From the NCBI GenBank assembly GCA_944320495.1, contig CALUHR010000013.1, forward strand, positions 64,001 through 128,000: DNA of 64,000 nt, written 5' to 3'. The notes beneath the pieces are model-generated. The model had not been told where the DNA came from. It worked only from the letters and a program-made list of their open reading frames with translations, and did no database searches. The stretch comes from Candidatus Methanomethylophilaceae archaeon (GTDB lineage Archaea; Thermoplasmatota; Thermoplasmata; Methanomassiliicoccales; Methanomethylophilaceae). Position numbers and translations under genes: made by a program. The stretch's first letter is position 1. The number at the start of each line of letters is the position of its first letter. Below are positions 661-58,380 of the stretch, one piece after another.

Positions 661-1032
661 TCGGTCGTCCCACTCGGCGAAGAGTCTGGCTATGCCCTTC
701 TTGGCCACGGACCAGCAGGGGACTCCGCCGATGAGGACGGCCACCTTGATGGCCTCCAGGATCTCCTCCTTGGTGGCCCCGTAGTTCTTGGCCACCCTCG
801 CCTGGGCGTAGACGCAGTCCTCGCACATCCTTACCGCGACGCACGAGAGCGCCATCAGCCTCTTGGTCTTCCTGTCGATGGCCCCGTCCTCGACCATGAC
901 CCTGTCCATCGTGTGCAGGGTGTCGATGAAGGACGGATCCAGCTCCCTGATCGCCTTCAGCGTGTCTGGCGCGAACCCGCCCATGCCGCTGCACATCTGC
1001 CCGAACTTGTCTCCTCCGCATTCCTGGGACAT
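661..1032 (-). CDS. Carboxymuconolactone decarboxylase (CMD/AhpD-like) family protein
   Basis: 'GAIDRKTKRLMALSCVAVRMCEDCV..Q...AK..GATKEEILEAI' with a CxxC motif. ATG at 1032. Ends CGA(663-661)-GTC-TGA(657-655). Confidence 0.8.
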
Positions 1033-1191
1033 GCGTACGGAATCAGTGGGCGGGCAGATAACGGTTGCCCGTCGTGGGACTGGATTCAACCCCCGTTCAC
1101 ATCCGGCCCCTCGAAGTGATGGGCAGACCCTGTGAACATCGTGGGATCCCCGATCTACAATTGCATATTAACATTCGTAACTATCAAATTA

Positions 1192-1199
1192 TTTAAATA
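1192..1199 (+). promoter_or_regulatory. Archaeal TATA box upstream of the aIF-1A operon
   Basis: TTTAAATA about 28 nt upstream of ATG 1227, in an AT-rich intergenic tract. Confidence 0.5.
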
Positions 1200-1226
1200 G
1201 AGAATCCCTTCATGGGTCCCTTATAA

Positions 1227-1565
1227 GTGATGACCATGGTAGACAACCAACCGCTGGAGAGCCCCGATGCGGATGTCACCCGCGTTCGTCTTCCGAACAT
1301 CAAGGAGAACGAGATGTTCGGCATAGCCGACCAGCTGCTGGGCGCATCCAAGATCAAGGTCATGTGCGAGGACGGAGTGTCCCGCGTCGGCCGCATCCCC
1401 GGGAAGATCAAGAAGAGGATGTGGATAAGGGAGGGAGACCTCCTCATCGTGTCCGTCTGGGACTTCCAGCCGGACAAGTGCGACGTCCGCTTCAGGTACA
1501 CCCGCACGCAGGCCGTCAACCTCAGCAAGAGGGGCAAGGTCCCGAAGAACCTCGACATATTCTGA
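1227..1565 (+). CDS. eif1a: Translation initiation factor aIF-1A
   Basis: 'EMFGIADQLLGASKIKVMCEDGVSRVGRIPGKIKKRMWIREGDLLIV..WDFQ..KCDV..RY'. Confidence 0.97.
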   Translation: MMTMVDNQPLESPDADVTRVRLPNIKENEMFGIADQLLGASKIKVMCEDGVSRVGRIPGKIKKRMWIREGDLLIVSVWDFQPDKCDVRFRYTRTQAVNLSKRGKVPKNLDIF

Positions 1566-1573
1566 GAGGTTCC

Positions 1574-2916: not shown

Positions 2917-2925
2917 GGCGACCCC

Positions 2926-4152
2926 ATGGAGGACTGGATCTACGAGAACCTGGAGACCGCCCGCGCCCTCGCTTCCGAGGGACTGTGCGACAGGTGCCTG
3001 GGCCGCATGTTCGGCAAGGTCGGCACCGGCATGACCAACGACGAGCGCGGACGCATGGTCCGCGAGGCTCTCGCGGAGGAGGGAGACTGCCCTCCCGCAG
3101 TGTCGCCCTGTCCCCTGTGCGAGGACATCTTCGACCTGCTCCCCCGCTTCGCCGAGAACGTGGCGGAGGCGGTGAACCCCATAGAGTCCGACAACTTCCT
3201 CGTCGGCACCAAGGTCGAACCCGAGATCGCCGAGCGCGAGAGGGCCCTGTGGGAGAAGCACCAGCTCCAGAGCCCGGAGGCCATCAAGTCCGAGCTCAAC
3301 CGCGAGATCGGCAAGCTGGCACTCCCCATGATCCACCGCCCGGTGGAGTTCAAGAACCCCCAGGTGGTCGCCCTGGTGGACACCCGCTTCGGCGAGGTCA
3401 AGCTGGACATCGCCCCCCTCTTCATCGCCGGCCGCTACAACAAGTACAGCCGCGAGATCCCCCAGACCATATGGCCCTGCAGGGAGTGCCACGGCAAGGG
3501 ATGTCCCCACTGCCACGGCAAGGGCAAGATGTACGAGACCTCGGTGCAGGAGATCATCGGGGACATCGCCCTGGAGATGGCCGACGGGAAGGAGCACTTC
3601 TTCCACGGCATGGGCCGCGAGGACATCGACGCGCGCATGCTCGGTGACGGGAGGCCCTTCGTCCTGGAGATCTCCCAGCCCAGGAGGAGGTTCATAGACC
3701 TGGACGAGCTCGAGAGGAGGTCCAGCGCAGGCGACATGGCAGCGTTCAACTCCCTGCACTTCGTCCAGCGCGAGGCCGTCGAGAGATACAAGGGTGCCGC
3801 GTCCGACAAGGTCTATCGCGTGCGCGTTAAAGCAGACGGCAAAGTTAATAAAGAGGCAGTAGTTGACGTCGCCTTATCGTTCAAGGACGCCGATATAGAA
3901 CAGAGGACTCCACGCCGTGTCGAGCACAGAAGGGCCGACCTGGTCAGGAAGAGGAGGATCCACTGGGTGACGGCGGACTCCTTCGACGGGGACCGGTTCG
4001 ACCTCGAACTCGAGACCGACTCCGGCACGTACGTGAAGGAGTTCGTGTCCGGGGACGACGGCCGCACTCACCCCAACTTCTCTGAGAGGCTTGGGATCCA
4101 GTGCGTCGTCGAGGCCCTCGACGTATTGGCGATTGACTATCACGAACCACGA
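2926..4152 (+). CDS. pus10: tRNA pseudouridine(54/55) synthase Pus10 (408 aa if CGA at 4150-4152 is the stop)
   Basis: 'LCDRCLGRMF', 'GRYNKYSREIPQT.W', 'FHGMGREDIDARMLG.GRPFVLE', 'SGTYVKEFVSGD.GRT.P', terminal 'LDVLAID'. First in-frame CGA follows four codons after 'AID', 10 nt before the rpl21e ATG. Confidence 0.92.
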
Positions 4153-4162
4153 GGGATTCACA

Positions 4163-4456: not shown

Positions 4457-4462
4457 GGTCCC

Positions 4463-4789: not shown

Positions 4790-4798
4790 CGTGATCAA

Positions 4799-6132: not shown

Positions 6133-6202
6133 TCGCTTCAACCAGACCGCCGGCGAAGAGGGGCAGGTTGATATACAACATATTGTCTGATTGCGGGACA
6201 TC

Positions 6203-6919: not shown

Positions 6920-7346
6920 CATCCTGGCCGTGGCCCGCATGCTCCGCATCGCGGGGCGCGAGGTCACGAGACGCCGCGACGCCCATGCCGCCAGCCTCGG
7001 GCTGACATCGTCCCAGGCGGATGCGCTCACGTTCATCCGCGAGCATCCGGGATGCATGATCGCCGACCTCGGGGCCTATTCAGGCTCCTCGCACCAGGCG
7101 GCCAGGACCCTCGTCGAGAGGCTGCGGGAGAGGGGACTGGTCGAGGTCTCCGTATCGGACAGGGACGCCCGCGCAAGGGTCCTCGAGATAACCCCCCGCG
7201 GAATACTCCTGCACGACAGGTTCCTCGCCATGGGCGCGGAGTCCTTCGGCAACATCAGGGAATCCTTCGACGAGGGCGAGGTCAGGGACCTCAGGGACAC
7301 CTTGGAGAGGTTGATGGCGCTCCTCGGTCTGGAGAGGACGGTCCGA
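6903..7346 (+). CDS. MarR family transcriptional regulator (CGA stop 7344-7346)
   Basis: 'LGLTSSQADAL.FI', 'LVERL.ERGLV....S.RDARAR.L.ITPRG'. GTG start; TGA 5 codons after the CGA. Confidence 0.85.
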
Positions 7347-7368
7347 TCCGTATTTCTATGGTGACACG

Positions 7369-7950
7369 ATGTCATCGAACATGGATCTCGAGAGGTTCAG
7401 AGAGCTGATGGCGAGGGACGGAAGGATCGTCTTCCCCTCCGAGGACGTAGGCGCGTTCTTGAACGAGGCGGCCGACAGGTCCCGCCGCATCACCATGGAC
7501 CTCAACACCGAATACCACACGATGGAGGAGATCCGCTCCATCATGTCGGAGCTCATATGCGAGCCCGTGGGCGAGGGGTTCAGATTGTTTCCTCCGTTCC
7601 ATGCGGACTTCGGCATGAACATCCACATCGGAAGGGACGTGTTCATCAACGAGGGGTGCTGCTTCCAGGACCAGGGAGGAATCTGGATAGGCGACGGATC
7701 GATGATAGGTCAGCAGGTCGTCATGGCCACCCTCGACCACGACCTGGACCCGGAGCACAGATATGACATGTTCCCGGGGCCGATTCACATCGGCAGGAAC
7801 GTCTGGGTCGGTGCCCATGCGACGATACTCAGGAACGTGACCATAGGCGACGGGGCCGTCGTGGCGGCCGGTGCGGTGGTCACGAGGGATGTCCCGCCGA
7901 ACACGGTCGTCGCCGGGGTGCCAGCGAAAGTCGTGAAGACCGTGGATCGA
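7369..7950 (+). CDS. Maltose/galactoside O-acetyltransferase (hexapeptide repeat; 193 aa with CGA stop 7948-7950)
   Basis: 'PPFHADFG.NI.IG..VFIN', 'PIHIG.NVWVGA.ATIL.NVTIGDGAVVAAGAVVTRDVP.NTVVAGVPAKVVKT'. The family ends at this last motif and CGA follows 2 codons later; the standard code gives 625 aa running across ychF. Confidence 0.9.
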
Positions 7951-9221: not shown

Positions 9222-11633
9222 ATGGAAACCGCGGAGATCAGGATAATCAGCACGTCGTCCGCCACCCTGGATGAGGAGCCCGTAGTAGAGATCTACGGCA
9301 AGGCCAGGGACGGCAGGTCCGTGACCGTCCTGGTCCGCGGGTTCCATCCGTACCTCTACGGGGTGGAGGTCCCGGAGAAGCTGGAGCGCCAGCTCTCCGA
9401 GGACCCCGAGGTCGTCTCGGTCGAGCACCATCCCCTCCTCTTCAGGGGGAGGAACGTCGATGCGCTGAGGATCACGATCAAGAGTCCCTGGAAGGTCTCA
9501 GACATGCGCAGCAGGCTCCGCGCCAACGGCGTCGAGTCCCTCGCATCCGACATCCCGTTCAACCACCGCTACATCTACGACCAGGACATGGGCGCCTGCA
9601 TCCGCGTGACGGGCGAGCCCGTGGACCGCGGGTACTTCACCGACCTGACGATCGAGCTGTCCTCGTTCGAGAACGTGGACCCCTTCGACCCCGGCCTGAA
9701 GACGCTGTCCTTCGACATCGAGAACAGCGTCGAGCACGATTTCCTGTACTGCATCTGCTCCGTGGTCCATGAGAACGGGACCATGCGGGCCTGCGACCCC
9801 ATCTACGGCACCGAGCCGCAGATCATCCAGGCCTTCTCCGACCTCATCAGGAGGGAGGACCCGGACGTCATCACCGGGTACAACATCGAGAACTACGACA
9901 TCCGCAAGATCGAGGAGCGCGCCAAGGCCAATCGCATGAAGGATGCGATGCCCTGGGGCCGCGACGGCAGCCAGCCGAGGCTGCGCAACGACCGCTTCTG
10001 GCGGGTGAGAGGGCGCATCGTGTGCGACGCCTGGTGGGCCGCCCGCAGAGAGCTCCATCCCAAGCAGGAGACCCTCAACGCGGTCTCCAAGGAGCTCCTC
10101 GGAGAGACCAAGCTGGACGTCGACCCCCGCCACATGGACCAGGAGTGGAGGGACAACCGCGCGAAGGTCCTCGAGTACTGCACCAAGGACGCGGAGCTGG
10201 CACTGCGCATCCTGAACGAGGTGGAGACGGTCCGCAAGGGTATGGACCTGGCGGCGGTGTCGAAGCTGTCGGTGGAAGACGTCCTCTCGTCCGGATCCTC
10301 GCAGCTCGCCGACTCGCTGCTCATCCGCGCGGCGGACCGCGCGAACGTCGCCGTCCCCCAGATGGGCAAGCGCACCAGGGACGACGAGCAGATCGAGGGG
10401 GGATACGTGCACGACATCAAACCGGGACTGTACCACTGGGTCTGCGTCCTGGACTTCAAGTCCATGTACCCGTCCACCATCATCGCCAAGAACATCTGCT
10501 TCACCACGCTCTCCCCCGACGGGGAGATCGTCGCCCCGTCAGGCACAAGGTTCCTCTCCAAGGAGAAGCGCCTCGGGCTCCTGCCGATGATCCTCCAGGG
10601 CCTCATGGACCAAAGGGATTCTATCAAGAGGCAGATGAAGCAGACGACGGACGAGCACGAGCGCAGATACCTGGACGGACTGCAGGCGGCCGTCAAGGTG
10701 CTGATGAACACATTCTACGGGGTGTTCGCCTCATCCTTCTACAGGTTCACGGACAAGAGCATCGGTGCCGCGATAACATCGTTCGCGCGTGCCAACGTCA
10801 AGGGCATCATCGGCGAGCTGCAGTCGGAGGGTCACCATGTGGTGTACTCGGACACCGACTCCGTCTTCGTCCAGTCGCCGAAGGACGACATGGACGGCGC
10901 CATAGGGTTCGGGACGGCGATGGCCGATCGCTACTCCCGGGACGGCGGCACGCTGGAGTTCGAGAAGATCCTCGAGCCCCTGTTCACCCACGGCAAGAAG
11001 AAGAGGTACGTCGGCCGCGTGGTATGGCCCGTGAGGCAGGAGGACCTGCTGGTGCGCGGATACGAGAGCAGGAGGACCGACTCCTTCGACCTCCAGGACC
11101 GCCTCCAGACAGAGATGTTCGCATGCATACTGGACGAGCGCAACGAAGACGCCCTGGCGCTTGCCAGGAAGGCGATCCAGGACACACTGGCCGGACGGGT
11201 GGACCCTTCGGACCTGGTGATATCCAAGACATGCAAGGGGCTAGATGCCTACGAGAACCCCGACCGCATGGCGAACGTCCAGGCGGCCAAGAAGATGATC
11301 GAGCTAGGGTACGACTTCATCCCGGGCATGAAGGTCTCGTGGATCGTCACCGACGCCAAGTCCGCCCCCATGAGGGTGGAGCCATACATCAGCGGTCCCC
11401 AGTTCACGGCGAAGCCCGACTACCGCTACTACGCGGAGCGTCTGGCGAAGATGGCCGGCATGGTCACAGATGTGCTTGGATGGGGCGAGAAGGACCTCAT
11501 GATGGGCAGCCAGCAGGCCACCCTCCTGGACGGCGGGATGTTCTCGTCCAAGGAGTCCGACGCCCCGCAGAGGGAGCCTCCGAAGGCCCCCAAGCCCAAG
11601 TCCAAGGTCCGGAGCCTTGACGAGTTCTTCCGA
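9222..11633 (+). CDS. polB: Family B DNA polymerase (803 aa with CGA stop 11631-11633)
   Basis: Exo I 'SFDIE', Pol A 'LDFKSMYPS', Pol B 'KVLMNTFYG', Pol C 'YSDTDS', 'KKRY'. Ends with the PIP-box-like 'KVRSLDEFF' immediately before CGA. Confidence 0.96.
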
Positions 11634-12167
11634 TCGCGACGCGAGCCTCGGACGGAGCGTCTCCCCCATCATCCTCAGCGTGATATCCGCCATCTCCTCC
11701 GGAGGGTCGGACATGCCCCTGTCGAACCACAGAACGAACCATGCCATCATCCCGCCGAGATGGTACTCCATCCGGTACATGGACGGGACGTCGCCTCCGT
11801 CTGTCGGGAAGTGCTCCCTCAGAACGGGGAGGAGCATGGGCGTGAGACCGCGGGAATGCAGGACGATCATCTCGTCGCGCTTCGCGTAGAACGAGGAGAA
11901 TATCGTCCCGACGTACGCCTTGACGGTCTCCCATCCGTCCATTTCGCTCGCCGCCCTGCTGATAGGCCGCATCGCACCTTCGTAGATGTACGACACGACC
12001 TCGTCAACCGACCCGAACCTGCGGTAGAACGACGTGCGGTTCATGCCCGCCTCCCGGGTCAGCATGCTCACGGTGACCTCGTCGTAAGTATGGTCCCTCA
12101 GCAGCCTTACCAGGGACGAGGCGAGAGCATCCGAGGTCCCATCACGAATATGAGACATATTAGGCAT
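11634..12167 (-). CDS. TetR/AcrR family transcriptional regulator (CGA stop 11636-11634)
   Basis: 'L..LL....YDEVTVSMLTREAGMNRTSFYRRFGSVDEV'; C-terminal 'GG......W...G...PPEEMA'. Start 12167 or 12158. Confidence 0.85.
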
Positions 12168-12702: not shown

Positions 12703-13065
12703 TCGGGCCTCTCCCAGACGTTCCATCATCTCGTTCACCCTATGACGCATGCGTGTGGCTGTGTTTATGGAGACCTCGCACTCCTCAGCGGTCTCCCTCA
12801 GAGTCGCACCCCGTGCGTGACACTCGACGAATATCGCCCACTTGTGCGCAGGAAGCTTGGTGCCTGCCATGACACCATTCCCGACGAACGTGCGTCCGCA
12901 CCCAGAGCATCTGAACCTCTGCGTTCCGCGAGACGTCCTGCCGAAGCGTACGTATTCTGTGCTCCCGCAGACCGGACATGATCCGTCAACCAGTGAAATC
13001 ATCATCTTCAGTCTGTCTCCACCGACGCTCCTCCTGGTGATTGCAGGCTCTTTACTGCCGCCCAT
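12703..13065 (-). mobile_element. Transposase-like fragment (IS1 InsA / IS1595-type zinc ribbon + HTH, no DDE domain); CGA stop 12705-12703
   Basis: 'CPVCGS..YVRFG....GTQRFRC..CGRTF' followed by the HTH 'TLRETAEECEVSINTATRMRHRV'. No catalytic domain or terminal inverted repeats seen. Confidence 0.6.
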
Positions 13066-13250: not shown

Positions 13251-13709
13251 ATGCTCGTACTGGACAGCTCCTACTTCTTCTCCTCCGACTCGCTCCCTGA
13301 CGAGGAGCACGTGTGCCCACCCGGCGTCATCCGCGAACTGGAGAACCACGGGGACCCCCGTCTGTCACTCTGGGGCGACATGGTCCGCGTGTCCGACTGC
13401 TCGAAGGGGTCCCTCAAGCGCGTCACAGAGGCCGCCCGCGGCAGCGGGGACCTGGGAAGGCTCTCCCCCGTCGACATGACCGTGCTGGCTCTCGCCCTGG
13501 ATGTGAACGGCACCATCCTCTCCGACGACTACTCCATCCAGAACGTGGCCAGGATACTCGGCATCCCGTTCAGGGCTGTCGGCACCGCCGGCATCAGGAA
13601 GGTCGCCAAGTGGAACTACCAGTGCATCGGCTGCCACAGGTGGTACAAGGAGAAGCTGCCGGAGTGCCCGGTGTGCGGATCGCCGATGCGGGCATGCAGG
13701 AAGAGGCGA
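13251..13709 (+). CDS. nob1: Nob1-like PIN endonuclease with zinc ribbon (152 aa with CGA stop 13707-13709)
   Basis: 'VLDSS.F', 'G.LGRLS.VD..VLALAL', 'SDDYSIQNVA..LGI', 'W...CIGC......CPVCGS'. True ATG at 13251. Confidence 0.9.
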
Positions 13710-21874: not shown

Positions 21875-22617
21875 CACAGCACCTCCTTCATGACGAGCGC
21901 GTCCTTCGGACAGTCGTCGATGCAGTTGCTGCAGCTGATGCACTTGACCTCGTCGATGACGGGGCGGAGGATCGGTTTGCCGGTCTTCTCGTTGGTTCCC
22001 TTCTCCACCATCTGGATGGCGTCGACGGGGCAGACCTTGGCGCACTTCTTGCAGCCGATGCACTTGGCGTCGGTCAGCTCCGGCCTGTCGAGACTGAACA
22101 CGGACACGCGCCTCTCGGCGTTGCCGTTGTCGATGTCCGACTGCAGAGTGACCTCCAGCTTGACCTTCATGCCCTCGGTGGTCTTGTCGTACGCGAGCCT
22201 GCGGGGTCCGTACAGCAGGTCGAACCTGGTGAACTCGGCGAGCTCGTACTCGGGGGTGACGGTCATGGCGTCGACGGGGCAGTACTCGGCGCAGTATCCG
22301 CACATGGCGCACCTGCCGAGGTTGACCTGAGGCCTCTTGACGGTCTTGCCGTCGGCGGCCTCTGAGTCGACGATCTTGATGCACGCGGTGGGGCACATGC
22401 GGGCGCACATGCCGCATCCGACGCATTTGTCGAAATCGAGTCCCGGGCGTCCGCGATAGTTGTCCGGCACCCACTCCTTCTCGTAGGGGTACAGGACGGT
22501 GACCGGCCTGTGGAAGACGGTCTTCGCGAAGAGCTTCAGGACGTGCCACTGGGGTTTGATGACCCAGAGTCCCCTCGCTGTGCTGCGGGGGTACTTTTCG
22601 AGATACTTCATAGCCAT
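21874..22617 (-). CDS. fpoI: Fpo-like complex subunit I (NuoI) with four CxxCxxCxxxCP motifs
   Basis: 'T..YPYEK...PDNYRG', CVGCGMCARMCP, CAMCGYCAEYCP, CIGCKKCAKVCP, CISCSNCIDDCP. Confidence 0.93.
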   Translation of the reverse strand: MAMKYLEKYPRSTARGLWVIKPQWHVLKLFAKTVFHRPVTVLYPYEKEWVPDNYRGRPGLDFDKCVGCGMCARMCPTACIKIVDSEAADGKTVKRPQVNLGRCAMCGYCAEYCPVDAMTVTPEYELAEFTRFDLLYGPRRLAYDKTTEGMKVKLEVTLQSDIDNGNAERRVSVFSLDRPELTDAKCIGCKKCAKVCPVDAIQMVEKGTNEKTGKPILRPVIDEVKCISCSNCIDDCPKDALVMKEVL

Positions 22618-26494: not shown

Positions 26495-27304
26495 ATGACC
26501 GCACGCATCGGATTCATCGGCGCCGGGAAGATGGCCGAGGCCCTGATGGCCGGACTCCTGGCGAAGGGCGTATGCTCGAAGGACGACATCATCGCCTGCG
26601 CCCCCAGCGAGGGGACCAGGAGGCACATCTCGGAGACCTACGGGATCGCGATGTTCCAGACCGCCACCGAGGTGGTCTCCATGGTGGACGAGGTCGTCCT
26701 CGCCGTCAAGCCCGCGCAGGTCCGCACCGTGATGGTCGACGAGGGCGCCGCATCGGCCTTCAGGCCCGGGACCCTCCTCCTCAGCGTCGTCGCGGGGCTC
26801 ACCGTGAACGGCCTGAAATCATATGTGCCAGACGCAAAGATCGTGCGTGTCATGCCGAACCACTGCGTGGCCGTTCTGGAGGGCGCCATGGGCTACACCA
26901 CGGACGGCACGCTGACCCCCGAGGAGCTGAATGGAGTATCATCCATCCTGGGTTCCGTGGGCCTCGCCGTGCAGGTGCCCGAGGAGAAGATGGACGCCAT
27001 CACCGGCCTCGCCGGGAGCTCCCCCGCGTTCATATATCAGGTGATAGACGCGATGGCCGACGCTGGCGTGCTCAACGGCATCCCGAGGAGGGACGCCATA
27101 ACACTGGCCGCGCAGTCGGTGCTGGGGGCCGCCAAGATGGTTCTCGAGACCGGGAAGCACCCGGACCAGCTGAAGGACGAGGTCTGCTCCCCCGGCGGCA
27201 CCACCATCGAGGGCGTCCGCGCCGCGGAGGACATGGGACTCCGCTCCGCGATGATCGCCGCGGTGGATGCGGCGGTATCCAAGTCGAGGGAGATGAGCAG
27301 GCGA
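26495..27304 (+). CDS. proC: Pyrroline-5-carboxylate reductase (269 aa with CGA stop 27302-27304)
   Basis: 'IGFIGAGKMAEAL', 'LAVKP', 'RVMPN', 'GLAGSSPAF', 'L...VCSPGGTTIEG', terminal 'AA..KSREM' directly before the CGA. Confidence 0.95.
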
Positions 27305-36601: not shown

Positions 36602-37504
36602 ATGAGGTCCGCGCTCCTGATACTGCCCATCCTTTCGGGTGTGATGTGGGGCGCAGCGGGGATATTCGTCCGCACACTCTCGGAGTACGGCTTCGACGGT
36701 CAGACCATCGCGTTCTCGCGCGTGCTCATCGCCATGGCCATGATGCTCCTGCTGATCCTGGCAACCGACAGGAGGATGCTCTCGTTCAGGAGGCGCGACA
36801 TCTGGCTGTTCGTCCTGTGCGCGGTGTCGATGACGGGGCTGAACGTGTTCTACACCATAGCCGCCGACGAGCTCTCGCTCTCCCTGGCGGCTGTCCTGCT
36901 CAGCCTGTCCCCGGTGTTCATGGTCCTCATCGCCCGCGTCATATTCGGCGAGGCCATCACCAGGCGCAAGGTGTTCTGCATAGCCGTATCCATCGTGGGA
37001 TGCGTCCTGGTGAGCGGATACCTCGAGAACGAATCTACGCTCTCGATGTTCGGCATCGCGTCAGGAATAGTCGCGGCGGTGTTCTACGCCGTCTACGGAA
37101 TAGCGTCGAAGAAGGCCTCCGCCAGCGGCTACAGCGTCTACACCACGCTGTTCTACTGCATGCTGATCTCCATGGTCATCCTGATCCCGTTCTCAGACCT
37201 CGGCATCGTGGCCGACTACGCGGGCGAGGGGGCCTGGGAGATCGGATTCCTGGTACTGCAGGCGGCGGTGGCATCGTTCCTGCCGTACATCCTGTACTCG
37301 GTGGCGATGGCGCGCATCGAGGCGGGCACGGGGTCGCTCCTGGCGGCCTGCGGGGAGCCGGTGGCGGCCGCCGTGTTCGGACTCCTGGTGTTCGCGGAGG
37401 TGCCGAGCCCGATCATGGTTGTCGGCATGGCCCTCGCCATCGGGGCGATGGCCACGATATGCATGAACCCCAAGAGGGAGGGGAACCTCGCGGAGGATCA
37501 TCGA
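36602..37504 (+). CDS. EamA/DMT family transporter (300 aa with CGA stop 37502-37504)
   Basis: 'MWGAAG.F', 'SLAAVLL.LSPVF', 'LPY.LY..AM.RIEAG..SLL...EPV.AAV.G...F.E'. Confidence 0.9.
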
Positions 37505-37963: not shown

Positions 37964-38515
37964 TCGCTCAAGCAGCCTGCCCCCATCGTTCCAGTTGCCG
38001 CGGATCAGACCGCGGCGGGTGTCCGAGATGAACGAGTCCAGCCTGCTCCTGTAGGCCTCGGGCCTGTCGCGGTACAGCTGCACGTTCCCGAGCCTCACGC
38101 GGACGTACAGGTCCGGCAGGACCTGGAAGTTCTCCCAGACGACCGGGTCCGCCCTCAGCTCGTCGAGGACCGCCTCGTCCACGGAGAACGACATGTCCGG
38201 TAGGACCGCCCTGCCGGCGTCCGTCATGAGGCCCAGGCGCTCCAGCCTGCGGCAGCGCGCCTTGTTGAGCTCCGTCCATCTCGACCCCTTGCGGGGAGAG
38301 AACCTCTGGACAGTGCCCAGCTCCGGGTCCTTCCTGACCGTGGAATCGATCCAGCCGAAGCACAGGGCCTCCTCGACCGCATCGACGTACGGCAGGATGC
38401 CCGTCTGGGCCTTCGTCCTGTCCACCGCGACCCAACAGCCCCGGGAGGACCGATGGTTGTCCTCCAGCCAGGACCTGAAACCGGCACGGTCCAGGACGAG
38501 GACGTCCTGCTCCAT
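37964..38515 (-). CDS. YdeI/OmpD-associated family protein (183 aa with CGA stop 37966-37964)
   Basis: 'FR.WL..NH......W', 'DAVEEALCFGWIDS', 'RFSPRK.S.W...NK.R...L...GLMT.AG'. Confidence 0.85.
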
Positions 38516-39273
38516 CGGATGACCCCCGGTCTGTAGCCGATGTCGAGGATCCCCTCAATGACCCTGCGGACGTCGTCCGACGCCCTGTCGGCATCTTCGC
38601 GGGACATGACCCCTCCGTCCCTAGTCTCGACCATGTGCCAGGAGTGGTCTGCGATGACGATGTCTCCCTCCGCGGAGGCGGCCATGGCGATGTAGTCCCC
38701 GGGCCCCCTCCTGCCCTCGTGCATCGGCCAGAGGTAGGCGGCGATGACCTTGCCCCCTGGATCCCTGGCCTTGTTCACGGGAAACTCGACCATGTCCTCC
38801 AGAAGGAACGGCTCCGACGGGGAGCCCACATCCGTGTAGGACGATGAGTCGTGCCTGATACCCAGGCGGCGCACGGCGCTCAGGACCCTCGCGTCGGCGG
38901 TCATGTACGGCGCACGCGAGCAGACGGGCCTGCCCACCCTGTCGGAGACAGCCGAGAAGGAACGTGCCAGCGTGCCGCGGAGATGGTCATCCCCCAGGGA
39001 AGTCAGGTCCTCGTGGTCGTAGCCGTGGACGCCTATCGAATGCCCGGCGGCGCGTGCGCAGTCTATGACCTCGGAGGTGCGGCCCTCGAAGAACAGCGTG
39101 CCGCGGATGCCGATGCCGTCGAGCAGATCCAGTATCGCGCCCAGACCCCTCTCCGAGGACGAGAAGCGGGGGGCGTCGCCGAAGCCCCTGTCCAGGGACC
39201 CGGCGGCGACCCTCCCCGGGACGCGCACGTTGACGTCCCGGTCTATGTCGGCGGTGTAGTACAGCCGTCTCAT
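38515..39273 (-). CDS. Polysaccharide deacetylase (NodB-like) family protein (252 aa with CGA stop 38517-38515)
   Basis: 'T.DID.D', 'ILDLLD..GIRGTLF', 'IGVHGYDH', 'RAPY', 'HDSS', 'HSWH'. The CGA overlaps the next ATG. Confidence 0.82.
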
Positions 39274-42021: not shown

Positions 42022-42948
42022 TCGCTCCCTTGAGAATATCCCGTCGCCCAGCTGCCTCACCATGACGTCATACACCGAGCCGGGACTCATCATGCCCAGC
42101 TCCGTGACGATCGCGTCTATGTACGCGGCGGGGGTGCTGTCGAACACTGGATTGAATATCTTTACCGAGTCGCGGACCTCCCCGGGCCTCACGACCTCGG
42201 AGATTTCGCGCTCCTCTATGGTCACCGAATCGCCGAACATTGTCATCGGCGAGAACTTGTAGGTCTCGGCGCAGGCGTAGAGGTGCACCCTGGCCTCGTG
42301 GGCGGCCAGCGCAAGCTGGGACGTCCCGACCTTGTTGATGAGGGCCCCCTGGGACGTGACGGTGTCGGCACCCACGAACACCTTGTCGACCTTGCGCATC
42401 ACCGAGCGCACCGCGCTGTCGATGATCAGCGTGACGTCCACGCCGGCGTCGGCCAGGTCGTTGACCGTCAGGATGCCCTGCCTCCAGGGACGGGACTCGG
42501 TTGCGTACACCCTGATGTCCTTCCCCTGCCTGTGGGCCTCCTTGATGACGCCTAGGGCGGCGCTGCTGTTGCAGTGCGTCATGATGACATCGCCGTCCTG
42601 GATCCTGCGTGCTCCGATGCGGGCGATCTCCTCCACCGCCCTCTCGGACCTTTCGCAGAATGCCTTCGCGTTGGCCAAGACCAGCGACCTTGCCTCCTCG
42701 AGGGAGGATGCCTCGGACGCGCCCCTGACCGTGGCGTGCAGCCCGTTCCACAGCGAGACCGCGGTGGGCCTCGATGCGAGGATCGTGTCGCTCGCCCCCT
42801 TCAGATCGGCGAGGAACCCCTCCAGGGTCCCCCCGGTGTACGTGTCGGCGAAGTCGCCCAGCGCGGACGCTCCCGCCCTGGCGATCCTCCCGGCCCCGCG
42901 AATCCTCATGCTGCGGATCAGCTCCGCAGTCTCCTCCGCCGTGGTCAC
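42022..42948 (-). CDS. Ribose-1,5-bisphosphate isomerase (eIF2B-alpha-like; 308 aa with CGA stop 42024-42022)
   Basis: 'IRSMRIRGAGRIA', 'RPTAVSL.N', 'MTHCNS', 'ESRP..QG', 'VGADTV', 'NKVGT', 'NPVFD.TP'. GTG start at 42948 is inferred. Confidence 0.92.
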
Positions 42949-43666: not shown

Positions 43667-44157
43667 TTGCGTTGATAGACCCGACGGACAAGATGCGTTC
43701 GGAGGCCAAGATAGGCCGTGGAAGGGCTGAGAGCATCGTAGGGAACCTCAGATCGTTGAAAGTCCCTCTGCCTGCTTACAGCGAAGCAATCTGCAAAACC
43801 GGGGACTACTATCAGAAAGACAGAGATGCACGCCTGAGACTCTACGAGGAACTGGATCGCCTGAGGAGCAGGGGATTCGTCGAAGTGGAGTACATCAAAG
43901 ACCCAGAGACGCTGAGGCTCGCTTCGGAGATGGCAAGATCACGTACGGATGAACGTGACAAGATGTCGATCATGGATTCCCTGATCATCGCGACGGCGAC
44001 GTCCGATCCGGAATGCAGGACGTTCTACACCACCGATGACAAGTGCCTCCATAACAGCGAAGTCTGGGAGTTGAGCAGAGAGTTCAGGGAGAGACACGAG
44101 TTCGACAACGCGTCGATCTCCGTCCAGATGCTGTGGAAGACCAGAGCCTCTGCGTGA
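43633..44157 (+). CDS. PIN-domain (VapC-like) toxin
   Basis: 'YIDTCYLIAL....D', 'E', 'MSIMDSLIIATA', 'FYTTD': the PIN acidic residue set. Confidence 0.8.
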   Translation: MAVSYIDTCYLIALIDPTDKMRSEAKIGRGRAESIVGNLRSLKVPLPAYSEAICKTGDYYQKDRDARLRLYEELDRLRSRGFVEVEYIKDPETLRLASEMARSRTDERDKMSIMDSLIIATATSDPECRTFYTTDDKCLHNSEVWELSREFRERHEFDNASISVQMLWKTRASA

Positions 44158-46042: not shown

Positions 46043-46070
46043 ATTAAAGAAAGAATGGATAGGGCGCAGC

Positions 46071-46730
46071 ATGCGCAAGTACGACCTCGTCTGCTTCGAC
46101 ATGGACGGAACCCTCACCACCGTACGCAGCTCCTGGAGATGGATCCACGACTACCTGGGCGTGGACAACGAGCCGTCCTATCAGGCGTTCATCAACGGGG
46201 AGATAGACGAGAACGAGTTCATGCGCAGGGACATCCACCTCTGGATGGAGAACAGGCCCGGGATCACCATCGGCGACATCGCCCACATCTTCCAGACCCT
46301 GCCACTGATCGGCGGAATACAGGAGACCGTCGCCTGCCTCAAGGACAACGGAATCGCCTGCGTCATCGTCAGCGGTGGGATCGACATCGCCGCGAAGATG
46401 CTCGCGGACGAGTTCGGCTTCGACGAGTACATCGCGGACAGCCTCGAGACCGATTCCGAGGGCAGGCTCACCGGCGAGGGTATCAGGAACCTGAACCTCC
46501 GCGACAAGGGGATCAACGTCAGAGGGTACATCGAGAAGTACTTCACGACCCCCGAGCGCACCGTGTCCATCGGCAACTCGTACACGGACATACCGATGTT
46601 CCAGAACTCCGGACTCTCCATCGCGTTCAACCCGACGGACGAGTACACATCGGAAGCGGCCACGCACACCGTGAACTCGGACAACATCGCGGACGTCCTC
46701 GACTTCATCATCGGGGACGGCGAGGAGCGA
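46071..46730 (+). CDS. HAD-family phosphoserine phosphatase-like hydrolase
   Basis: 'FDMDGTL', 'IVSGG', 'DKG', 'IGNSYTD'. Ends CGA(46728-46730)-TCG-TGA. Confidence 0.88.
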
Positions 46731-49984: not shown

Positions 49985-50554
49985 ATGGAGTACGACCCCG
50001 ATGTCAGGATCTACGAGGATCCGGAGGTGTATCCGCCCTCGGACGACAGCATCCTGCTTATCGAATCGCTGGACGTTCATCCTGGGGAGAGGGTCCTGGA
50101 GATCGGGTGCGGATCGGGGGTGGTGTCCATCCACTGCGCCCTGAACGGATGCGACGTCACCTCTGGGGACATCAACCCCCGCGCCGTCGAGCTTACCCGC
50201 AGGAACGCGGAGGCGAACGGCGCCTACATAGACGTGGTGGAGACCGACGTCTACTCCGCCGTGGAGGGGAGGTTCGACACGATAGTGTTCAACCTGCCGT
50301 ACCTCCCGGTCGAGGAGGAGGGACTGCTGGAGAAGGCCTGGTCCGGAGGCCCTGATGGCCTCGGACCTCTGCCGAGGCTCCTGGAGGGAGCGGACGACCG
50401 CCTTCTCCCCGGAGGGAGAGTGGTGGTCGTCGTCTCGTCCCTGATGGACCGCGATGCTCTGGACGGGACCCTCGTGGGCTGGAGCCGGAGGGTCCTGGGG
50501 GAGCTCCCCCTGTTCTTCGAGAGGCTCTATGTCCTGGAGCTCAGGCGTCCGCGA
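49985..50554 (+). CDS. HemK2/Mtq2-family methyltransferase (189 aa with CGA stop 50552-50554)
   Basis: 'EVYPPSDDS.LL', 'VLEIGCGSGVVS', 'DINP.A', 'FNLPYLP', 'W.GG.DG', terminal 'FFERLYVLEL'. Confidence 0.88.
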
Positions 50555-55674: not shown

Positions 55675-55792
55675 GGTTGAGAGTATCTGCACATCTGATA
55701 AGAGGTTTGGGCAGTGCGGTCGGGTTGGACGTCGTGGGATCCGCCTGCGGAGGTCGGGTGCATTTATCATCCCGTAATCGATACATATATTC

Positions 55793-57439
55793 ATGAAGAA
55801 GGTGAACACCAGCGGGCTGTCGTTCCGGGACATCCGCGAGGGAGGGAAGTACTACGTCGACAAATCTCTCCTCATCAAGGACATGCTTGATACGGACGAC
55901 CGTGGGGTCTTCCTCTACACCCGCCCCCGCAGGTTCGGCAAGACCACCAACCTCACCATGCTCGACGCCTTCTTCAACATCGAATACAAAGGGAACACAT
56001 GGTTCGACGGGCTCGCCATCTCCGAACACCCGGACTGCATGTGCCAGATGAGCAGATATCCTGTGATACTCCTCGACCTGAAAGACCTCGCGGCCGAGGG
56101 CAACAACGATTACGGAATCTTCGTATCGAGGGTGAAGAAGGTCCTGAGCGACCTGTACAACCGCTTCACCTACCTTCTCGACTCACCGAGGATCGGTGAC
56201 AGGGACAGGAGGCTCTTCGAATCCGTCCTGTACATGGATGCCGACGAGAACGTGCTCGCGGATGCCGTCAGGGACCTATCCAGGATGCTGCACCTCTTCC
56301 ATGGGGAGCGGACGGTCATCCTGGTGGACGAGTACGACCAGTCGATAACCCAGACGTTCGGCGATGCTTTGCAGGAGCGTGTCATCGGATTCCTGAGACT
56401 CCTGCTGTCCAGCGCACTGAAGTCCAACGGCGACCTCCAGATGGCCTACGTCACGGGCGTGATGCAGGTCGCTAAGGCAGGGTTCTTCTCCGGGATGAAC
56501 AACATCAGCATCAACAACACGTTCTCCGTAGAGTCGGACGAGCGCTTCGGTTTCACCGAACCGGAGGTCAGGGACATCCTGTCGTACTACGGCCATCCGG
56601 AGAAGTTCGACGAGGCGAGGGATTGGTACGACGGGTACCGCTTCGGGGACGCCGAGGTGTACAACCCGTTCAGCATAATGACCTACGTCCAGAGGGGATT
56701 CCAACCGGACAGCTACTGGCGCGACTCGAGCAGGAACACCCCAATGTTGTGGATGCTGGAGAGGGCCGGCGCCATAGGGTTGCAGGCCGTTGCGGACCTG
56801 GTCAACGGCGGGACCATGGTGTCCGAGCTCCATCGGACGGTGAGCTACGACGAGATGAGACTCAACGACCCCGTCGACCTGCTCTCTCTGATGGTCATGA
56901 CCGGATACCTGAACGCCATCCCTAAGGGGGACGGACTCTACGAGCTGTCCGTCCCCAACAGGGAGGCCATGGGCATCGTGGATTCGCTCCTGAGCAGGAA
57001 CAGGCGCATCGGGAACGATGCGTTCGAGAGGTTCAACGCCGCGGTGCTGGACGGGGATGCGGCGGCCATGACGGAAGTCCTCCAGAGCGTCCTCGCCGAT
57101 GGCAGCTACTTCTCGCTGAGGGACGAGTCGTCGTATGAGAACATAGTCCTCACGATGATGCACGGGATGCTTCGCGGGTACAGGATAACCTCCCAAAAGG
57201 AGTCCGGGAACGGGAGAGCGGACCTCGTGCTGGAACTGAGGGACGAGGGGTCCGTTCCCATAATCCTCGAGCTGAAGGTGTCGGACTCGGAGGGCTCCCT
57301 CGATTCCGACGCTGAGAGCGCGATAGCACAGATCCACGACAAGAACTACTATCTCGGCATGAGGGGCGACGTCATACTGATCGGCCTCGCGTTCCGCGGC
57401 AAGCTCGTCCGCGGGAAGGTCGAGAGGCTCCGCCTGCGA
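55793..57439 (+). CDS. AAA-ATPase-like protein with C-terminal PD-(D/E)XK (PDDEXK_9-type) nuclease domain (548 aa with CGA stop 57437-57439)
   Basis: 'YYVDKS..I', 'TRPRRFGKT', 'ILVDEYD', 'TGV', 'FGFT..EV', 'WYDGY.FG...VYNP.S', 'PN.E', 'G.GRADL', 'ILELK', 'QI..K.Y'. Confidence 0.88.
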
Positions 57440-57492
57440 GGACGGACGCGCAGACCGCCGGCCATTCGGGAAGGGGATGACATGGAGGACCC

Positions 57493-58038
57493 ATGACCGC
57501 GCGCGACGATCCCGACGTCAGGGACAGCAGGCTGATGAGCAGGATACTGCGCCACTGCCCCGAGAGATACGGGGTCGCCCTGGACCGCGACGGGTGGGCA
57601 TCGGTGGAGGGGCTCAGCAGGGGCTCCGGACTCCAGGCGGAGCGCATAATCCGCATAGCGGAGACCAACACCAGGTACGAGCTGTCCCCCGACGGAGGGA
57701 GGATAAGGGCGCTCCACGGCCACAGCGTCGACGTCGGATACGGGGCGCCCGTGTCCCCTCCGGACGTGCTCTACCACGGCACCAGCAGGGAGAACCTGAA
57801 GGGGATCATGGCCTCGGGTGCGATACTCCCGATGAGGCGCACCATGGTCCACCTGTCGGTCTCCGTGGAGAGGGCGGAGGAGGTCGGCAGGAGGCACGGT
57901 GAGCCCGTCGTCATATCCGTGGATGCCAGGAGGATGGCCGGGAGCGGGTTCGAGTTCTTTCTCTCGGGGGACGGGGTGTACCTCACGGAGAGGGTGCCGA
58001 CGGGATACTTCCTGGTCGTGACCGATATGGGGGATCGA
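57493..58038 (+). CDS. kptA: Second RNA 2'-phosphotransferase KptA/Tpt1, bacterial-type (181 aa with CGA stop 58036-58038)
   Basis: 'MSRILRH.P', 'LD.DGW', 'TRY', 'IRALHGHS', 'LYHGT', 'R..VHLS', 'RHG.PV', 'GVYL...VP..Y'. Confidence 0.88.
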
Positions 58039-58380
58039 TCGCAGGGTCCTGTCGATCCTGTGTATCTCCTCGTACTGCTCTAGGACCTCGCCGTCCTCGC
58101 GCATCTCGCCGCAGATGATGAAATCGGCGGCCTGCAGATGGTTGGCCACCCTCGTCCCGCCGGGGGTGATCGTGTAGAACCTCGTGACGTGCTTCCCCGT
58201 CTCGAGGTATGTGTCGGCCATTCCCAGCTCGACGAGCCTGCGGCCGATCCTGGAGGCCGTGGTGTAGTTCGAACCGAACCTGTAGAGGTCGCCCTCCTTG
58301 ATGCGGCCCTTGTAGCTCAGAAACATGATGGCATCCGCTATGTACCTTTCCGACAACGGGGATACATCGTTGCGTGCCAC
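58039..58380 (-). CDS. Small winged-helix DNA-binding protein (113 aa with CGA stop 58041-58039)
   Basis: 'NYTTASRIGRRLVELGM', 'FYTITPGG.RVA..L'. GTG start. Confidence 0.6.

What the first reader, a model, noticed from the sequence alone, without database searches (positions are those of the whole stretch)
661..58041. CGA behaves as a stop codon throughout this genome segment (candidate new genetic code or codon-specific recoding)
Seen in the sequence: 24 of 68 gene 3' ends (hand count) carry an in-frame CGA at or near where the family ends or where the neighbouring gene abuts. Positions: CMD 663-661, pus10 4150, ksgA 6130, MarR 7344, acetyltransferase 7948, polB 11631, TetR 11636, IS-like 12705, nob1 13707, proC 27302, radical SAM 27307, kptA 30765, FUSC 34623, DMT 37502, GNAT 37503, YdeI 37966, deacetylase 38517, R15P isomerase 42024, msrA 44115, HAD 46728, hemK2 50552, AAA-nuclease 57437, kptA2 58036, wHTH 58041. 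I found no internal in-frame CGA in the genes I scanned codon by codon (including polB, pus10, gatE, the radical SAM gene, AMP phosphorylase, ychF, rio1, the AAA-nuclease and the >1100-aa kinase), although AGG, CGC, AGA, CGT and CGG all occur internally. Reading CGA as Arg gives implausible tails that run through neighbouring genes: Pus10 622 vs 408 aa, PolB 1009 vs 803, acetyltransferase 625 vs 193, Nob1 513 vs 152, ProC 447 vs 269, wHTH 343 vs 113. Inference, three mechanisms: (a) true reassignment, with aRF1 reading CGA and tRNA-Arg(UCG) lost; (b) C-to-U mRNA editing of CGA to UGA; (c) termination or rescue at an unassigned codon. I know of no described code with CGA as stop, but I could not check the literature.
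Basis: partly seen in the sequence, partly recalled or inferred. Interest (0 to 1): 0.97.

Follow-up and report, generated by a model that had tools for sequence, protein, structure and literature searches.

The report
CGA works as a stop codon
In this gut methanogen (Candidatus Methanoprimaticola), the arginine codon CGA has vanished from inside genes and instead ends about a quarter of them, and the only internal CGA left sits in the release-factor gene, so this looks like a sense-to-stop change of the genetic code with its own feedback sensor.

Summary
All 24 listed CGA codons are at the stated coordinates. With CGA read as a stop, the window's ORFs tile cleanly (33 TGA, 24 CGA, 2 TAA).

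- **Genome-wide:** 353 of 1,482 coding-like ORFs end at CGA. Coding periodicity collapses after CGA as it does after TGA. CGA-defined C-termini coincide with the standard stops of homologues outside the genus (median offset 0).
- **Frame-specific:** there are 41,617 out-of-frame CGA trinucleotides against one genuine in-frame CGA. This rules out blanket C-to-U editing.
- **Genus-wide:** in Methanoprimaticola/UBA71, 2 CGA occur in 192,842 aligned codons from 46 genomes.

- The one internal CGA is codon 78 of the single aRF1 gene, conserved in 32/32 genus members.
- Six other CGA-depleted Methanomethylophilaceae genera also keep at least one CGA early in aRF1 (63/63 genomes including Methanoprimaticola), at shifting positions.
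- tRNA-Arg(UCG) is not lost. In this genus its anticodon arm is always non-canonical.

Best reading: aRF1 terminates at CGA in competition with a weakened tRNA, and the aRF1 CGA acts as a feedback sensor. This is inferred, because no RNA or protein data were available. The scan has flagged CGA=stop before, on other windows of this genome and on another genome. I found no paper describing it.

The parts
661..663 (-). CGA ending the 123-aa ORF 661-1032 (reader: CMD)
   Evidence: family name not checked
4150..4152 (+). CGA ending pus10 (408 aa)
   Evidence: Pus10_C profile 1-232/232 ends at residue 404; table-11 ORF would be 622 aa
6130..6132 (+). CGA ending ksgA/RrnaAD (261 aa)
7344..7346 (+). 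CGA ending the 147-aa ORF (reader: MarR)
   Evidence: name not checked
7948..7950 (+). CGA ending the 193-aa ORF (reader: acetyltransferase)
   Evidence: 625 aa if read through
11631..11633 (+). CGA ending polB (803 aa), directly after the conserved C-terminal ..LD(D/E)FF
   Evidence: relatives have TGA at exactly this codon; G018, G009, G010, G004, Mx06 and UBA537 have CGA
11634..11636 (-). CGA ending the convergent 192-aa ORF (reader: TetR); forms the palindrome CGATCG with the polB stop
12703..12705 (-). CGA ending the 120-aa low-GC3 ORF (reader: IS-like)
   Evidence: weakest case, GC3 only 0.66
13707..13709 (+). CGA ending the nob1-like PIN_6 gene (152 aa)
22617..22619 (-).
   Evidence: ambiguous because a standard stop follows closely
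27302..27304 (+). CGA ending proC (277 aa)
   Evidence: P5CR_dimer 105/105 ends at residue 275
27305..27307 (-). CGA ending the B12-binding radical SAM gene (574 aa); abuts the proC stop (CGATCG)
30763..30765 (-). CGA ending kptA/Tpt1 (225 aa)
34621..34623 (-). CGA ending the 633-aa ORF (reader: FUSC)
   Evidence: name not checked
37502..37504 (+). CGA ending the 300-aa ORF (reader: DMT); overlaps the next stop as TCGA
37501..37503 (-). CGA ending the 161-aa ORF (reader: GNAT)
37964..37966 (-). CGA ending the 183-aa ORF (reader: YdeI)
38515..38517 (-). CGA ending the 252-aa ORF (reader: deacetylase)
42022..42024 (-). CGA ending the ribose-1,5-bisphosphate isomerase/IF-2B family gene (321 aa)
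   Evidence: IF-2B profile 280/280 complete
44113..44115 (-). CGA ending msrA (181 aa)
   Evidence: PMSR 153/153 complete
46728..46730 (+). CGA ending the 295-aa ORF (reader: HAD)
   Evidence: overlaps an antisense ORF, not resolved
50552..50554 (+). CGA ending the MTS-type methyltransferase (reader: hemK2; 189 aa)
57437..57439 (+). CGA ending the 548-aa ORF (reader: AAA-nuclease)
58036..58038 (+). CGA ending the second kptA/Tpt1 gene (181 aa)
58039..58041 (-). CGA ending the 113-aa ORF (reader: wHTH); abuts the kptA2 stop (CGATCG)
   Evidence: 343 aa if read through

Best explanation
CGA is a fourth termination signal in this archaeon, a Candidatus Methanoprimaticola (GTDB UBA71) species of the Methanomethylophilaceae. 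Ribosomes that reach an in-frame CGA release the protein.

**Most likely mechanism.** The single release factor aRF1 reads CGA through its UGA-reading mode. It wins against a tRNA-Arg(UCG) whose anticodon arm has been weakened in this genus.

**Evolutionary path.**
1. Sense CGA was purged first: it is rare across the family and essentially zero in several genera.
2. T-to-C drift at unconstrained TGA stops then produced CGA stops, now about 24% of genes in this genome.

**Feedback sensor.** The only CGA still read as arginine is an in-frame CGA early in the aRF1 gene, at codon 78 in this genus. I read it as working like the in-frame UGA of bacterial prfB:
- When aRF1 is abundant, translation of its own mRNA stops at CGA.
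- When aRF1 is scarce, tRNA-Arg(UCG) reads through and full-length aRF1 is made.

**Shown:** the position, frame-specificity, phylogenetic spread and homology-matched ends of CGA; the conserved aRF1 CGA; the altered tRNA.

**Inferred:** that aRF1 is the agent, and that the aRF1 CGA is regulatory.
For: **1. CGA marks gene ends.**
- 353 of 1,482 coding-like ORFs end at CGA.
- The same-frame coding signal continues after CGA in 4.8% of cases, against 5.9% after TGA and 7.1% after TAA.
- For 59 CGA-ending genes with homologues outside the genus, the end matches the homologue's standard stop: median offset 0, and 75% within 2 codons. The 235 TGA-ending genes give 76%. Reading through to the next standard stop gives only 5%.
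- PolB has CGA exactly where relatives have TGA, in several independent public assemblies.

**2. The effect is at the level of translation.**
- 41,617 out-of-frame CGA trinucleotides occur against 0 in-frame.
- 34 CGAUG stop-start overlaps occur against 13 UGAUG.

**3. The CGA share of stops depends on the +4 base.** It is U 44%, C 29%, G 24% and A 12%. This is expected for recognition by a release factor.

**4. aRF1 keeps a CGA where nothing else does.**
- There is a single aRF1 gene.
- Its codon 78 is CGA in 32/32 genus genomes. The flanks are conserved at synonymous sites in the 30 tabulated genes: GCU 30/30 before it, CUN and AAA (24/30) after it. G008 and G015 have UCU before the CGA.
- In all 63 genomes examined from seven CGA-depleted genera, aRF1 keeps at least one CGA within its first 105 codons, at positions 9, 11, 25, 50, 78 or 99/105. 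Flanking genes have almost none.

**5. The tRNA is retained but altered.**
- In this genus, positions 31 and 39 of tRNA-Arg(UCG) never pair (A.A 19, C.A 11, U.C 1), or the loop is CCUCGAC with C33. The rest of the stem co-varies.
- Eight other genera keep a canonical arm.
- The two A.A clades have 15-50% CGA stops. C.A clades have 10% or less.

**6. Precedent in yeast.** Yeast eRF1 detectably terminates at CGA and competes with tRNA-Arg. L123R in the YxC motif enhances this (PMC7379694). This family's aRF1 has Y-R-C at the aligned position.
Against: - Termination at CGA is therefore inferred from sequence alone.
- aRF1 shows no clade-specific change in NIKS, the GT(S/E) loop or YxCxxxF. Nothing marks a new specificity, and Y-R-C also occurs outside the CGA-stop clade.
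- A cognate tRNA gene is kept and looks functional, which should cause read-through.
- CGA makes up only 25-30% of TGA+CGA stops. First-position C at synonymous Leu sites is 86-95%. CGA is therefore either a poorer stop than TGA or a recent one.
- Part of the +4 U excess comes from gene packing: abutting convergent stops and CGAUG overlaps.
- The sensor's +4 base differs between genera (C, G or U), so no common 'leaky context' is evident.
- No conserved RNA structure follows the aRF1 CGA.
Confidence: 0.65

Rival explanations
1. CGA is an unassigned or 'hungry' codon. Ribosomes stall there because decoding by the crippled tRNA-Arg(UCG) is very slow. They are resolved by rescue factors (aPelota/ABCE1 splitting, then peptidyl-tRNA hydrolase) rather than by aRF1 recognising CGA.
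For: - aRF1 has no specificity-motif change.
- The tRNA arm is degenerate in this genus.
- Sense CGA was purged in sister genera long before CGA stops appeared.
- aPelota is present.
Against: - Rescue is slow and costly for a quarter of all genes.
- It does not explain why the release-factor gene alone keeps a CGA in 63/63 genomes.
- It does not explain the +4-base dependence or the 34 CGAUG termination-reinitiation overlaps.
- Yeast eRF1 demonstrably acts on CGA.
Confidence: 0.2
2. Site-specific C-to-U mRNA editing converts the terminal CGA codons to UGA, so the code itself is standard.
For: CGA and UGA differ by one C/U. Plant organelles create stops this way (my own knowledge). No RNA data were available to exclude it.
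Against: - Out-of-frame CGA is abundant and not avoided. NCG|A codons behave as unedited Ser/Pro/Thr/Ala. Editing would therefore have to pick about 350 in-frame sites with no shared motif beyond a weak +4 bias.
- It would not explain the genome-wide purge of sense CGA or the conserved CGA in aRF1.
- mRNA editing of this kind is not known in archaea, to my knowledge.
Confidence: 0.04
3. CGA is still plain arginine, just extremely rare. The proteins carry C-terminal tails up to the next standard stop.
For: A tRNA-Arg(UCG) gene exists, and aRF1 codon 78 must be read as Arg.
Against: - Tails have a median of 27 codons and 26% exceed 100 codons.
- They lose coding periodicity.
- They run antisense through neighbouring genes.
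- They destroy the match with homologue ends: 5% vs 75% within 2 codons.
Confidence: 0.03
4. Assembly or sequencing artefact (systematic T-to-C error at TGA stops).
For: None found.
Against: - The same pattern appears in dozens of independent assemblies from different laboratories: UBA bins, Mx06, the RGIG rumen MAGs, RefSeq MG2 and single-contig genomes.
- An error could not remove sense CGA.
Confidence: 0.01

Closest known systems
Sense-to-stop codes of organelles (NCBI tables 2, 22, 23: AGA/AGG in vertebrate, UCA in Scenedesmus, UUA in Thraustochytrium mitochondria; my own knowledge)
   Same: A sense codon disappears from genes and is found only at ORF ends. Arginine codons are again the ones affected.
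   Different: - This is a free-living (host-associated) cellular genome of 1.8 Mb with about 350 such stops, not a dozen-gene organelle.
- The human AGA/AGG case was explained by a -1 shift onto UAG. That cannot work for CGA, because NCG is not a stop.
- The cognate tRNA gene is retained here.
Bacterial prfB (RF2) autoregulation through an in-frame UGA (my own knowledge)
   Same: A release-factor gene carries, early in its ORF, the very codon that the factor is proposed to read. The feature is conserved across many species.
   Different: - prfB uses a +1 frameshift with a Shine-Dalgarno-like stimulator.
- Here the frame continues and a conserved Arg is encoded, so it would be read-through by a cognate tRNA.
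- The position has moved at least five times within the family.
- No experimental support exists yet.
Misdecoding of CGA by yeast eRF1/eRF3 (Wada & Ito 2018, PMC7379694)
   Same: The eRF1/aRF1 family can release peptide at CGA in competition with tRNA-Arg. UGA-biased YxC variants (L123R/F/Y) enhance this. The aRF1 here has R at that position.
   Different: In yeast this is a weak side reaction at a poorly decoded codon. Here it would be the normal way to end a quarter of all genes.
Speculated CGA=stop in two hydrothermal-vent archaeal MAGs (Melnykov 2026, bioRxiv 10.64898/2026.04.02.715157)
   Same: Archaeal genomes with no CGA in recognisable domains. The author raises CGA=stop as a possibility.
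   Different: - Those MAGs have CGG reassigned to Trp and no tRNA(UCG). Here CGG is Arg and tRNA(UCG) is present.
- That paper states its method cannot infer stops and leaves the question open.
- That preprint never mentions Methanomassiliicoccales.
Codon capture and unassigned codons (CGG in Mycoplasma capricolum, AGA/AUA in Micrococcus luteus; my own knowledge); arginine-codon reassignments found by Codetta (PMC8629427)
   Same: A graded series is visible: rare codon, then vanished codon, then reappearance with a new meaning. The CGN box is again the soft spot.
   Different: - The genomes here are GC-rich (62%), not AT-rich.
- The new meaning is 'stop', which Codetta-type methods cannot detect.
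- The tRNA is not lost.
tRNAs with shortened (4-bp) anticodon stems that change decoding (Blastocrithidia tRNA-Trp, my own knowledge; bacterial survey PMC13092985, abstract seen)
   Same: A code change goes together with loss of one anticodon-stem base pair in the tRNA concerned.
   Different: In those cases the short stem lets a tRNA read a stop as sense. Here the broken 31-39 pair (or C33 loop) is in the tRNA that loses its codon, and would weaken rather than extend decoding. This effect is inferred, not tested.

Membership tests
Sense-to-stop genetic code variant | The codon is absent from conserved sense positions | tested here: met
   One internal CGA (aRF1) in 469,476 G000 codons. 2 in 192,842 aligned codons of 46 genus genomes, against 268 in 62,575 in other families.
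Sense-to-stop genetic code variant | The codon sits where homologues have standard stops | tested here: met
   Median offset 0, and 75% within 2 codons for 59 genes. PolB has CGA at the same codon as TGA in relatives.
Sense-to-stop genetic code variant | The cognate tRNA is lost or disabled | tested here: inconclusive
   The gene is present with a conserved cloverleaf, but the 31-39 pair is broken or the loop is altered in every genus member. Its function is untested.
Sense-to-stop genetic code variant | The release factor recognises the codon | not testable with these tools
   There is no motif change in aRF1. Indirect support comes from the aRF1 sensor and yeast eRF1.
Sense-to-stop genetic code variant | Protein or ribosome evidence of termination | not testable with these tools
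No proteomics tool is available.
Release-factor autoregulation (prfB type) | An in-frame copy of the factor's own codon lies early in the factor's gene and is conserved | tested here: met
   Codon 78 in 32/32 genus genomes. At least one CGA within codons 9-105 in 63/63 genomes of seven CGA-depleted genera.
Release-factor autoregulation (prfB type) | A programmed +1 frameshift with an upstream stimulator | tested here: not met
   The frame continues through the CGA and encodes the conserved Arg of ..ARLKTY... No conserved downstream structure was found.
C-to-U editing that creates stop codons | CGA is converted to UGA in RNA | tested here: inconclusive
   Blanket editing is excluded by normal NCG|A codons. 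Site-specific editing needs RNA reads, which were unavailable.
Unassigned codon | The codon is absent from ORFs and no tRNA reads it | tested here: not met
   The codon is used at 353 ORF ends and once in aRF1, and a tRNA(UCG) gene is present.
Mitochondrial AGA/AGG-type termination by -1 frameshift | The shifted frame yields a standard stop | tested here: not met
   A -1 shift gives NCG and a +1 shift gives GAN. Neither is a stop, and the -1 base is mostly C or G.

The most novel reading that the evidence does not exclude
This would be the first sense-to-stop reassignment in a cellular (non-organellar) genome: CGA read by aRF1 in Candidatus Methanoprimaticola. The evolutionary intermediates are still alive across the Methanomethylophilaceae. 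In Methanomethylophilus, the genus of the cultivated M. alvus, CGA is essentially unassigned. A read-through sensor in the aRF1 gene, together with a deliberately weakened tRNA-Arg(UCG), would set the balance between termination and decoding.
Probability: 0.6. Interest if true: 0.95.

Novelty: new variant of a known kind. Interest (0 to 1): 0.93.

Why it matters
- **A new kind of code change.** It would show that a sense codon can become a stop codon in a free-living cell. It would also show how: purge of the codon, weakening of its tRNA, and near-cognate reading by the release factor, all under feedback from the factor's own gene. The living intermediates in sister genera make the codon-capture and ambiguous-intermediate models directly testable.
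- **Public annotations.** Table-11 annotations of these abundant human, primate and ruminant gut methanogens would be wrong for up to a quarter or more of genes, with false C-terminal tails and swallowed neighbours.
- **Detection methods.** By their authors' accounts, Codetta and KACI infer only amino-acid meanings and cannot call a stop. Other lineages with sense-to-stop changes may therefore be hidden.
- **Genetic code expansion.** M. alvus, the source of a widely used PylRS/tRNA pair, belongs to a genus where CGA is almost free.

Tried and rejected
- **aRF1 specificity motifs.** The NIKS, GT(S/E) and YxCxxxF regions do not differ between CGA-free and CGA-using genera. Genus-specific residues (17, 142, 250, 270, 299, 310) lie outside the known codon-reading motifs.
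- **Stimulatory RNA structure after the aRF1 CGA.** RNAalifold on 18 sequences gave a covariation term of 0.11, with only one pair showing compensatory change. I found no evidence for a structure.
- **Strict tRNA pattern search.** It found nothing in the complete genomes G008 and G015, and BLAST also missed them. A covariance model resolved this: they carry a divergent tRNA(UCG) with a CCUCGAC loop. The idea that the tRNA was lost in some species is therefore rejected.
- **Frameshift onto a standard stop.** Impossible from the sequence.
- **GC content as the sole driver of CGA-stop frequency.** This holds only partly. Low-GC species have none, but species at 0.61 GC range from 2% to about 45%.
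- **A 'weak context' common to all aRF1 sensors.** Not supported, because the +4 base differs by genus.
- **Ribosomal protein L2 search.** No hit; the search was meant to locate highly expressed genes. The assembly is about 90% complete and the r-protein cluster seems to be missing. I did not test whether highly expressed genes avoid CGA stops.
- **Literature.** Five searches and several papers gave no description of CGA=stop in this clade.

Full report
**Observation**

The window is G000:C13:64001-128000 of a 1.77-Mb, 14-contig, 62% GC archaeal assembly. Under table 11 many ORFs overrun their neighbours. With CGA read as a stop they tile cleanly. Real frames are easy to recognise because GC3 is about 0.9.

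One more lies at 22617-22619(-). Among 60 coding-like ORFs in the window, the stops are 33 TGA, 24 CGA and 2 TAA.

Pfam confirms ten of the gene identities. Complete domains finish a few residues before the CGA, for example Pus10_C 232/232 at residue 404 of 408 and P5CR_dimer 105/105 at 275 of 277.

**Genome scale**

- Of 1,482 coding-like ORFs, 1,039 end in TGA, 353 in CGA, 47 in TAA and 43 in TAG.
- After CGA the same-frame coding signal survives in 4.8% of cases, against 5.9% after TGA and 7.1% after TAA. It survives in 40% after TAG, as expected for a pyrrolysine user.
- Only eight in-frame CGAs have coding-like sequence on both sides. From the sequence, seven look like same-frame neighbouring genes (not checked by homology). 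The eighth is aRF1.
- Out-of-frame CGA is very common (32,965 xxC|GA and 8,652 xCG|A). NCG codons followed by A align to Ser/Pro/Thr/Ala in outgroup genomes as well as other NCG codons do. The avoidance is therefore frame-specific, meaning translational. Indiscriminate CGA-to-UGA editing is excluded.
- CGG still aligns to Arg.

**Homology test of the ends**

I used tblastn of G000 proteins against about 1.5 Mb fetched from relatives. For 59 CGA-ending genes with homologues outside the genus:
- The ends coincide with the homologue's standard stop: median offset 0, 75% within 2 codons and 97% within 10.
- This is indistinguishable from the 235 TGA-ending genes (76% within 2 codons).
- If CGA were read through to the next standard stop, only 5% would match.

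PolB ends with the conserved ..LD(D/E)FF in the genus and most relatives fetched. Most relatives then have TGA. G000, G018, G009, G010, G004, Ca. M. hominis Mx06, UBA537 and others have CGA at that very codon. Within the genus, the codon aligned with a G000 CGA stop is TGA 36 times, CGA 17 times and TAA 4 times.

**Who and how widely**

Record titles place the genus as Candidatus Methanoprimaticola, which is GTDB UBA71, in the Methanomethylophilaceae.

| Group | In-frame CGA / aligned codons |
|---|---|
| Genus, 46 genomes | 2 / 192,842 (10,930 Arg codons) |
| Other families of the order | 268 / 62,575, mostly aligned to Arg |
| M. alvus (G127) | 2 / 38,520 |
| A g23 genome (G086) | 4 / 26,446 |
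| M. termitum (G074) | 24 / 23,137 |

Some genera of the family use CGA normally.

The share of CGA stops differs strongly between Methanoprimaticola species, from 0/26 to about 50%. It follows GC content only loosely. The codon was evidently emptied first and re-used as a stop later, in particular lineages.

**The release factor**

G000 has one aRF1, plus aPelota. Its NIKS and YxCxxxF motifs are intact. No recognition-motif change separates CGA-free from CGA-using genera.

The gene contains the genome's only true internal CGA, at codon 78. This is the conserved Arg of ..AARLKTY...

- All 30 genus aRF1 genes first fetched have exactly one CGA, at codon 78. The two complete genomes G008 and G015 do as well.
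- Other Arg codons in the gene drift among AGG, AGA, CGC and CGT. Codon 77 is GCU in 30/30 (UCU in G008 and G015), codon 79 is CUN, and codon 80 is AAA in 24/30.
- In the other CGA-depleted genera, aRF1 again keeps a CGA early in the gene:

| Genus | aRF1 CGA position | Genomes |
|---|---|---|
| Methanomethylophilus (g17) | codon 25 | 9/9 |
| g15 | codon 25 | 6/6 |
| g23 | codon 11 | 6/6 |
| g16 | codon 11 | 2/2 |
| g24 | codon 50 or 9 | 2/2 |
| g13 | codons 25, 50, 78 or 99/105 | 6/6 |

Flanking genes in these genomes have almost no CGA. Together with Methanoprimaticola this is 63 of 63 genomes. In CGA-using genera, aRF1 has several CGAs or none.

A codon that has been purged everywhere except the release-factor gene, and whose position has been replaced several times, argues for selection on its presence there. 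The natural reading is termination-versus-read-through feedback, as with the in-frame UGA of prfB. No conserved downstream RNA structure was found.

**The tRNA**

It is found through the genus and family. Its acceptor, D and T arms are conserved, and the upper anticodon stem co-varies (TCAG/CTGA, CTAG/CTAG, TTGG/CCAA, TCGG/CCGA).

In Methanoprimaticola the 31-39 pair is never formed: A.A in 19 sequences, C.A in 11 and U.C in 1.
- G000 and G018 additionally have the loop UUUCGGC instead of CUUCGGA.
- G008, G007 and G015 have the loop CCUCGAC (C33, A37) and a 27.43 mismatch. These were found only with a covariance model.
- In eight other genera (24 sequences), positions 31 and 39 always pair and the loop is canonical; six of these sequences have one mismatch higher in the stem.

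On an aRF1 gene tree the A.A state falls in two separate clades. These are the clades with 15-50% CGA stops, while C.A clades have 10% or less. That gives only two independent contrasts, so it is suggestive rather than significant.

I infer that the tRNA is kept to read the aRF1 CGA (and perhaps CGG), but is weakened so that termination wins elsewhere.

**Context**

Among stops not locked in ATGA-type overlaps, the CGA share is 44% before U, 29% before C, 24% before G and 12% before A. Part of the U excess is due to gene packing:
- 34 CGAUG stop-start overlaps against 13 UGAUG.
- 25 exactly abutting convergent gene pairs, of which 24 involve CGA and 12 form the palindrome CGATCG. I cannot explain this last enrichment.

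CGA is 25-30% of TGA+CGA stops. Synonymous first-position C at Leu codons is 86-95%. CGA is therefore still less favoured than TGA, or has not reached equilibrium. Backup stops are modestly enriched after CGA: 31% have a standard stop within 10 codons, against 22% after TGA.

**Mechanism and rivals**

The best-supported model is near-cognate reading of CGA by aRF1 in competition with a weak tRNA.
- Yeast eRF1 does this detectably, even at a single terminal CGA. UGA-biased YxC variants such as L123R enhance it (PMC7379694).
- The aRF1 of this family has Y-R-C at the aligned position. So do some archaea outside the clade, so this is a predisposition and not a marker.

Rescue of stalled ribosomes at an unassigned codon remains possible, at about 0.2. 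It does not explain the aRF1 sensor, the context dependence or the CGAUG coupling sites. Site-specific editing, real Arg tails and artefact are all unlikely, for the reasons given under the rivals.

**Literature and earlier scan notes**

Searches found no description of CGA as a stop in Methanomassiliicoccales.
- Codetta (PMC8629427) and KACI infer only amino-acid meanings and cannot call stops.
- The KACI preprint merely raises CGA=stop as a possibility for two unrelated vent MAGs that have CGG=Trp and no tRNA(UCG).
- The Pyl-code preprint on M. alvus does not mention CGA.

Earlier notes of this scan had already flagged CGA=stop on other windows of this genome and on another genome. One unchecked first-reader note had pointed at aRF1 codon 78. 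I reached both points independently before reading those notes. I extended them with the family-wide sensor, the tRNA arm states and the homology-matched ends.

**Verdict**

The interpretation 'CGA is a stop codon' is very probably right at the level of gene ends (about 0.95). The agent (aRF1) and the feedback sensor are well-motivated inferences (about 0.6) that need RNA and protein data.

Noticed in passing
G000:C2:85936-87165 (-), outside the window: The single aRF1 gene holds the genome's only genuine internal CGA, at codon 78. In G000 and G018 the GT(S/E)-loop equivalent reads R-S-T-E instead of the R-G-T-E of all other relatives.
   Followed up: yes
G000:C13:413317-413390 (+), outside the window: tRNA-Arg(UCG) has an A31.A39 mismatch and the loop UUUCGGC, with no encoded CCA. 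The genus-wide variants of this arm are described in the report.
   Followed up: yes
window 11631-11636, 27302-27307, 58036-58041, 37501-37504: Convergent genes share palindromic stops (CGATCG abutting, TCGA overlapping). Genome-wide, 24 of 25 exactly abutting convergent pairs involve CGA and 12 are CGATCG. Gaps of 1-3 nt are far rarer. This is unexplained.
   Followed up: partly
whole genome G000: TAG closes only 20 of 1,219 long coding-like ORFs, and in 40% of those the frame stays coding-like afterwards. This fits TAG read as pyrrolysine. ARAGORN called no tRNA-Pyl in this 90%-complete assembly.
   Followed up: no
whole genome G000: The CGAUG stop-start overlap (1 nt) occurs 34 times against 13 for UGAUG. 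All 206 four-base overlaps are (A/G/T)TGA by necessity, which protects those TGA stops from drifting to CGA.
   Followed up: partly
window 45308-46730: The 295-aa CGA-ending ORF 45843-46730(+) overlaps the 270-aa ORF 45308-46120(-) by about 280 nt on the opposite strand. Both pass the composition filter, so one may be spurious or mis-started.
   Followed up: no
window 58458-61100 and 12703-13065: These stretches have clearly lower GC3 (0.45-0.8) than the rest of the window, so they may be recently acquired DNA.
   Followed up: no
L241 (CAVABN010000023.1): A contig filed under a Bifidobacteriaceae bin encodes a PolB fragment 83% identical to this archaeon's. It is probably a binning contaminant in a public record.
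   Followed up: no
G000, whole assembly: No match to Ribosomal_L2_N was found. The main ribosomal-protein cluster seems to be missing from the assembly.
   Followed up: no
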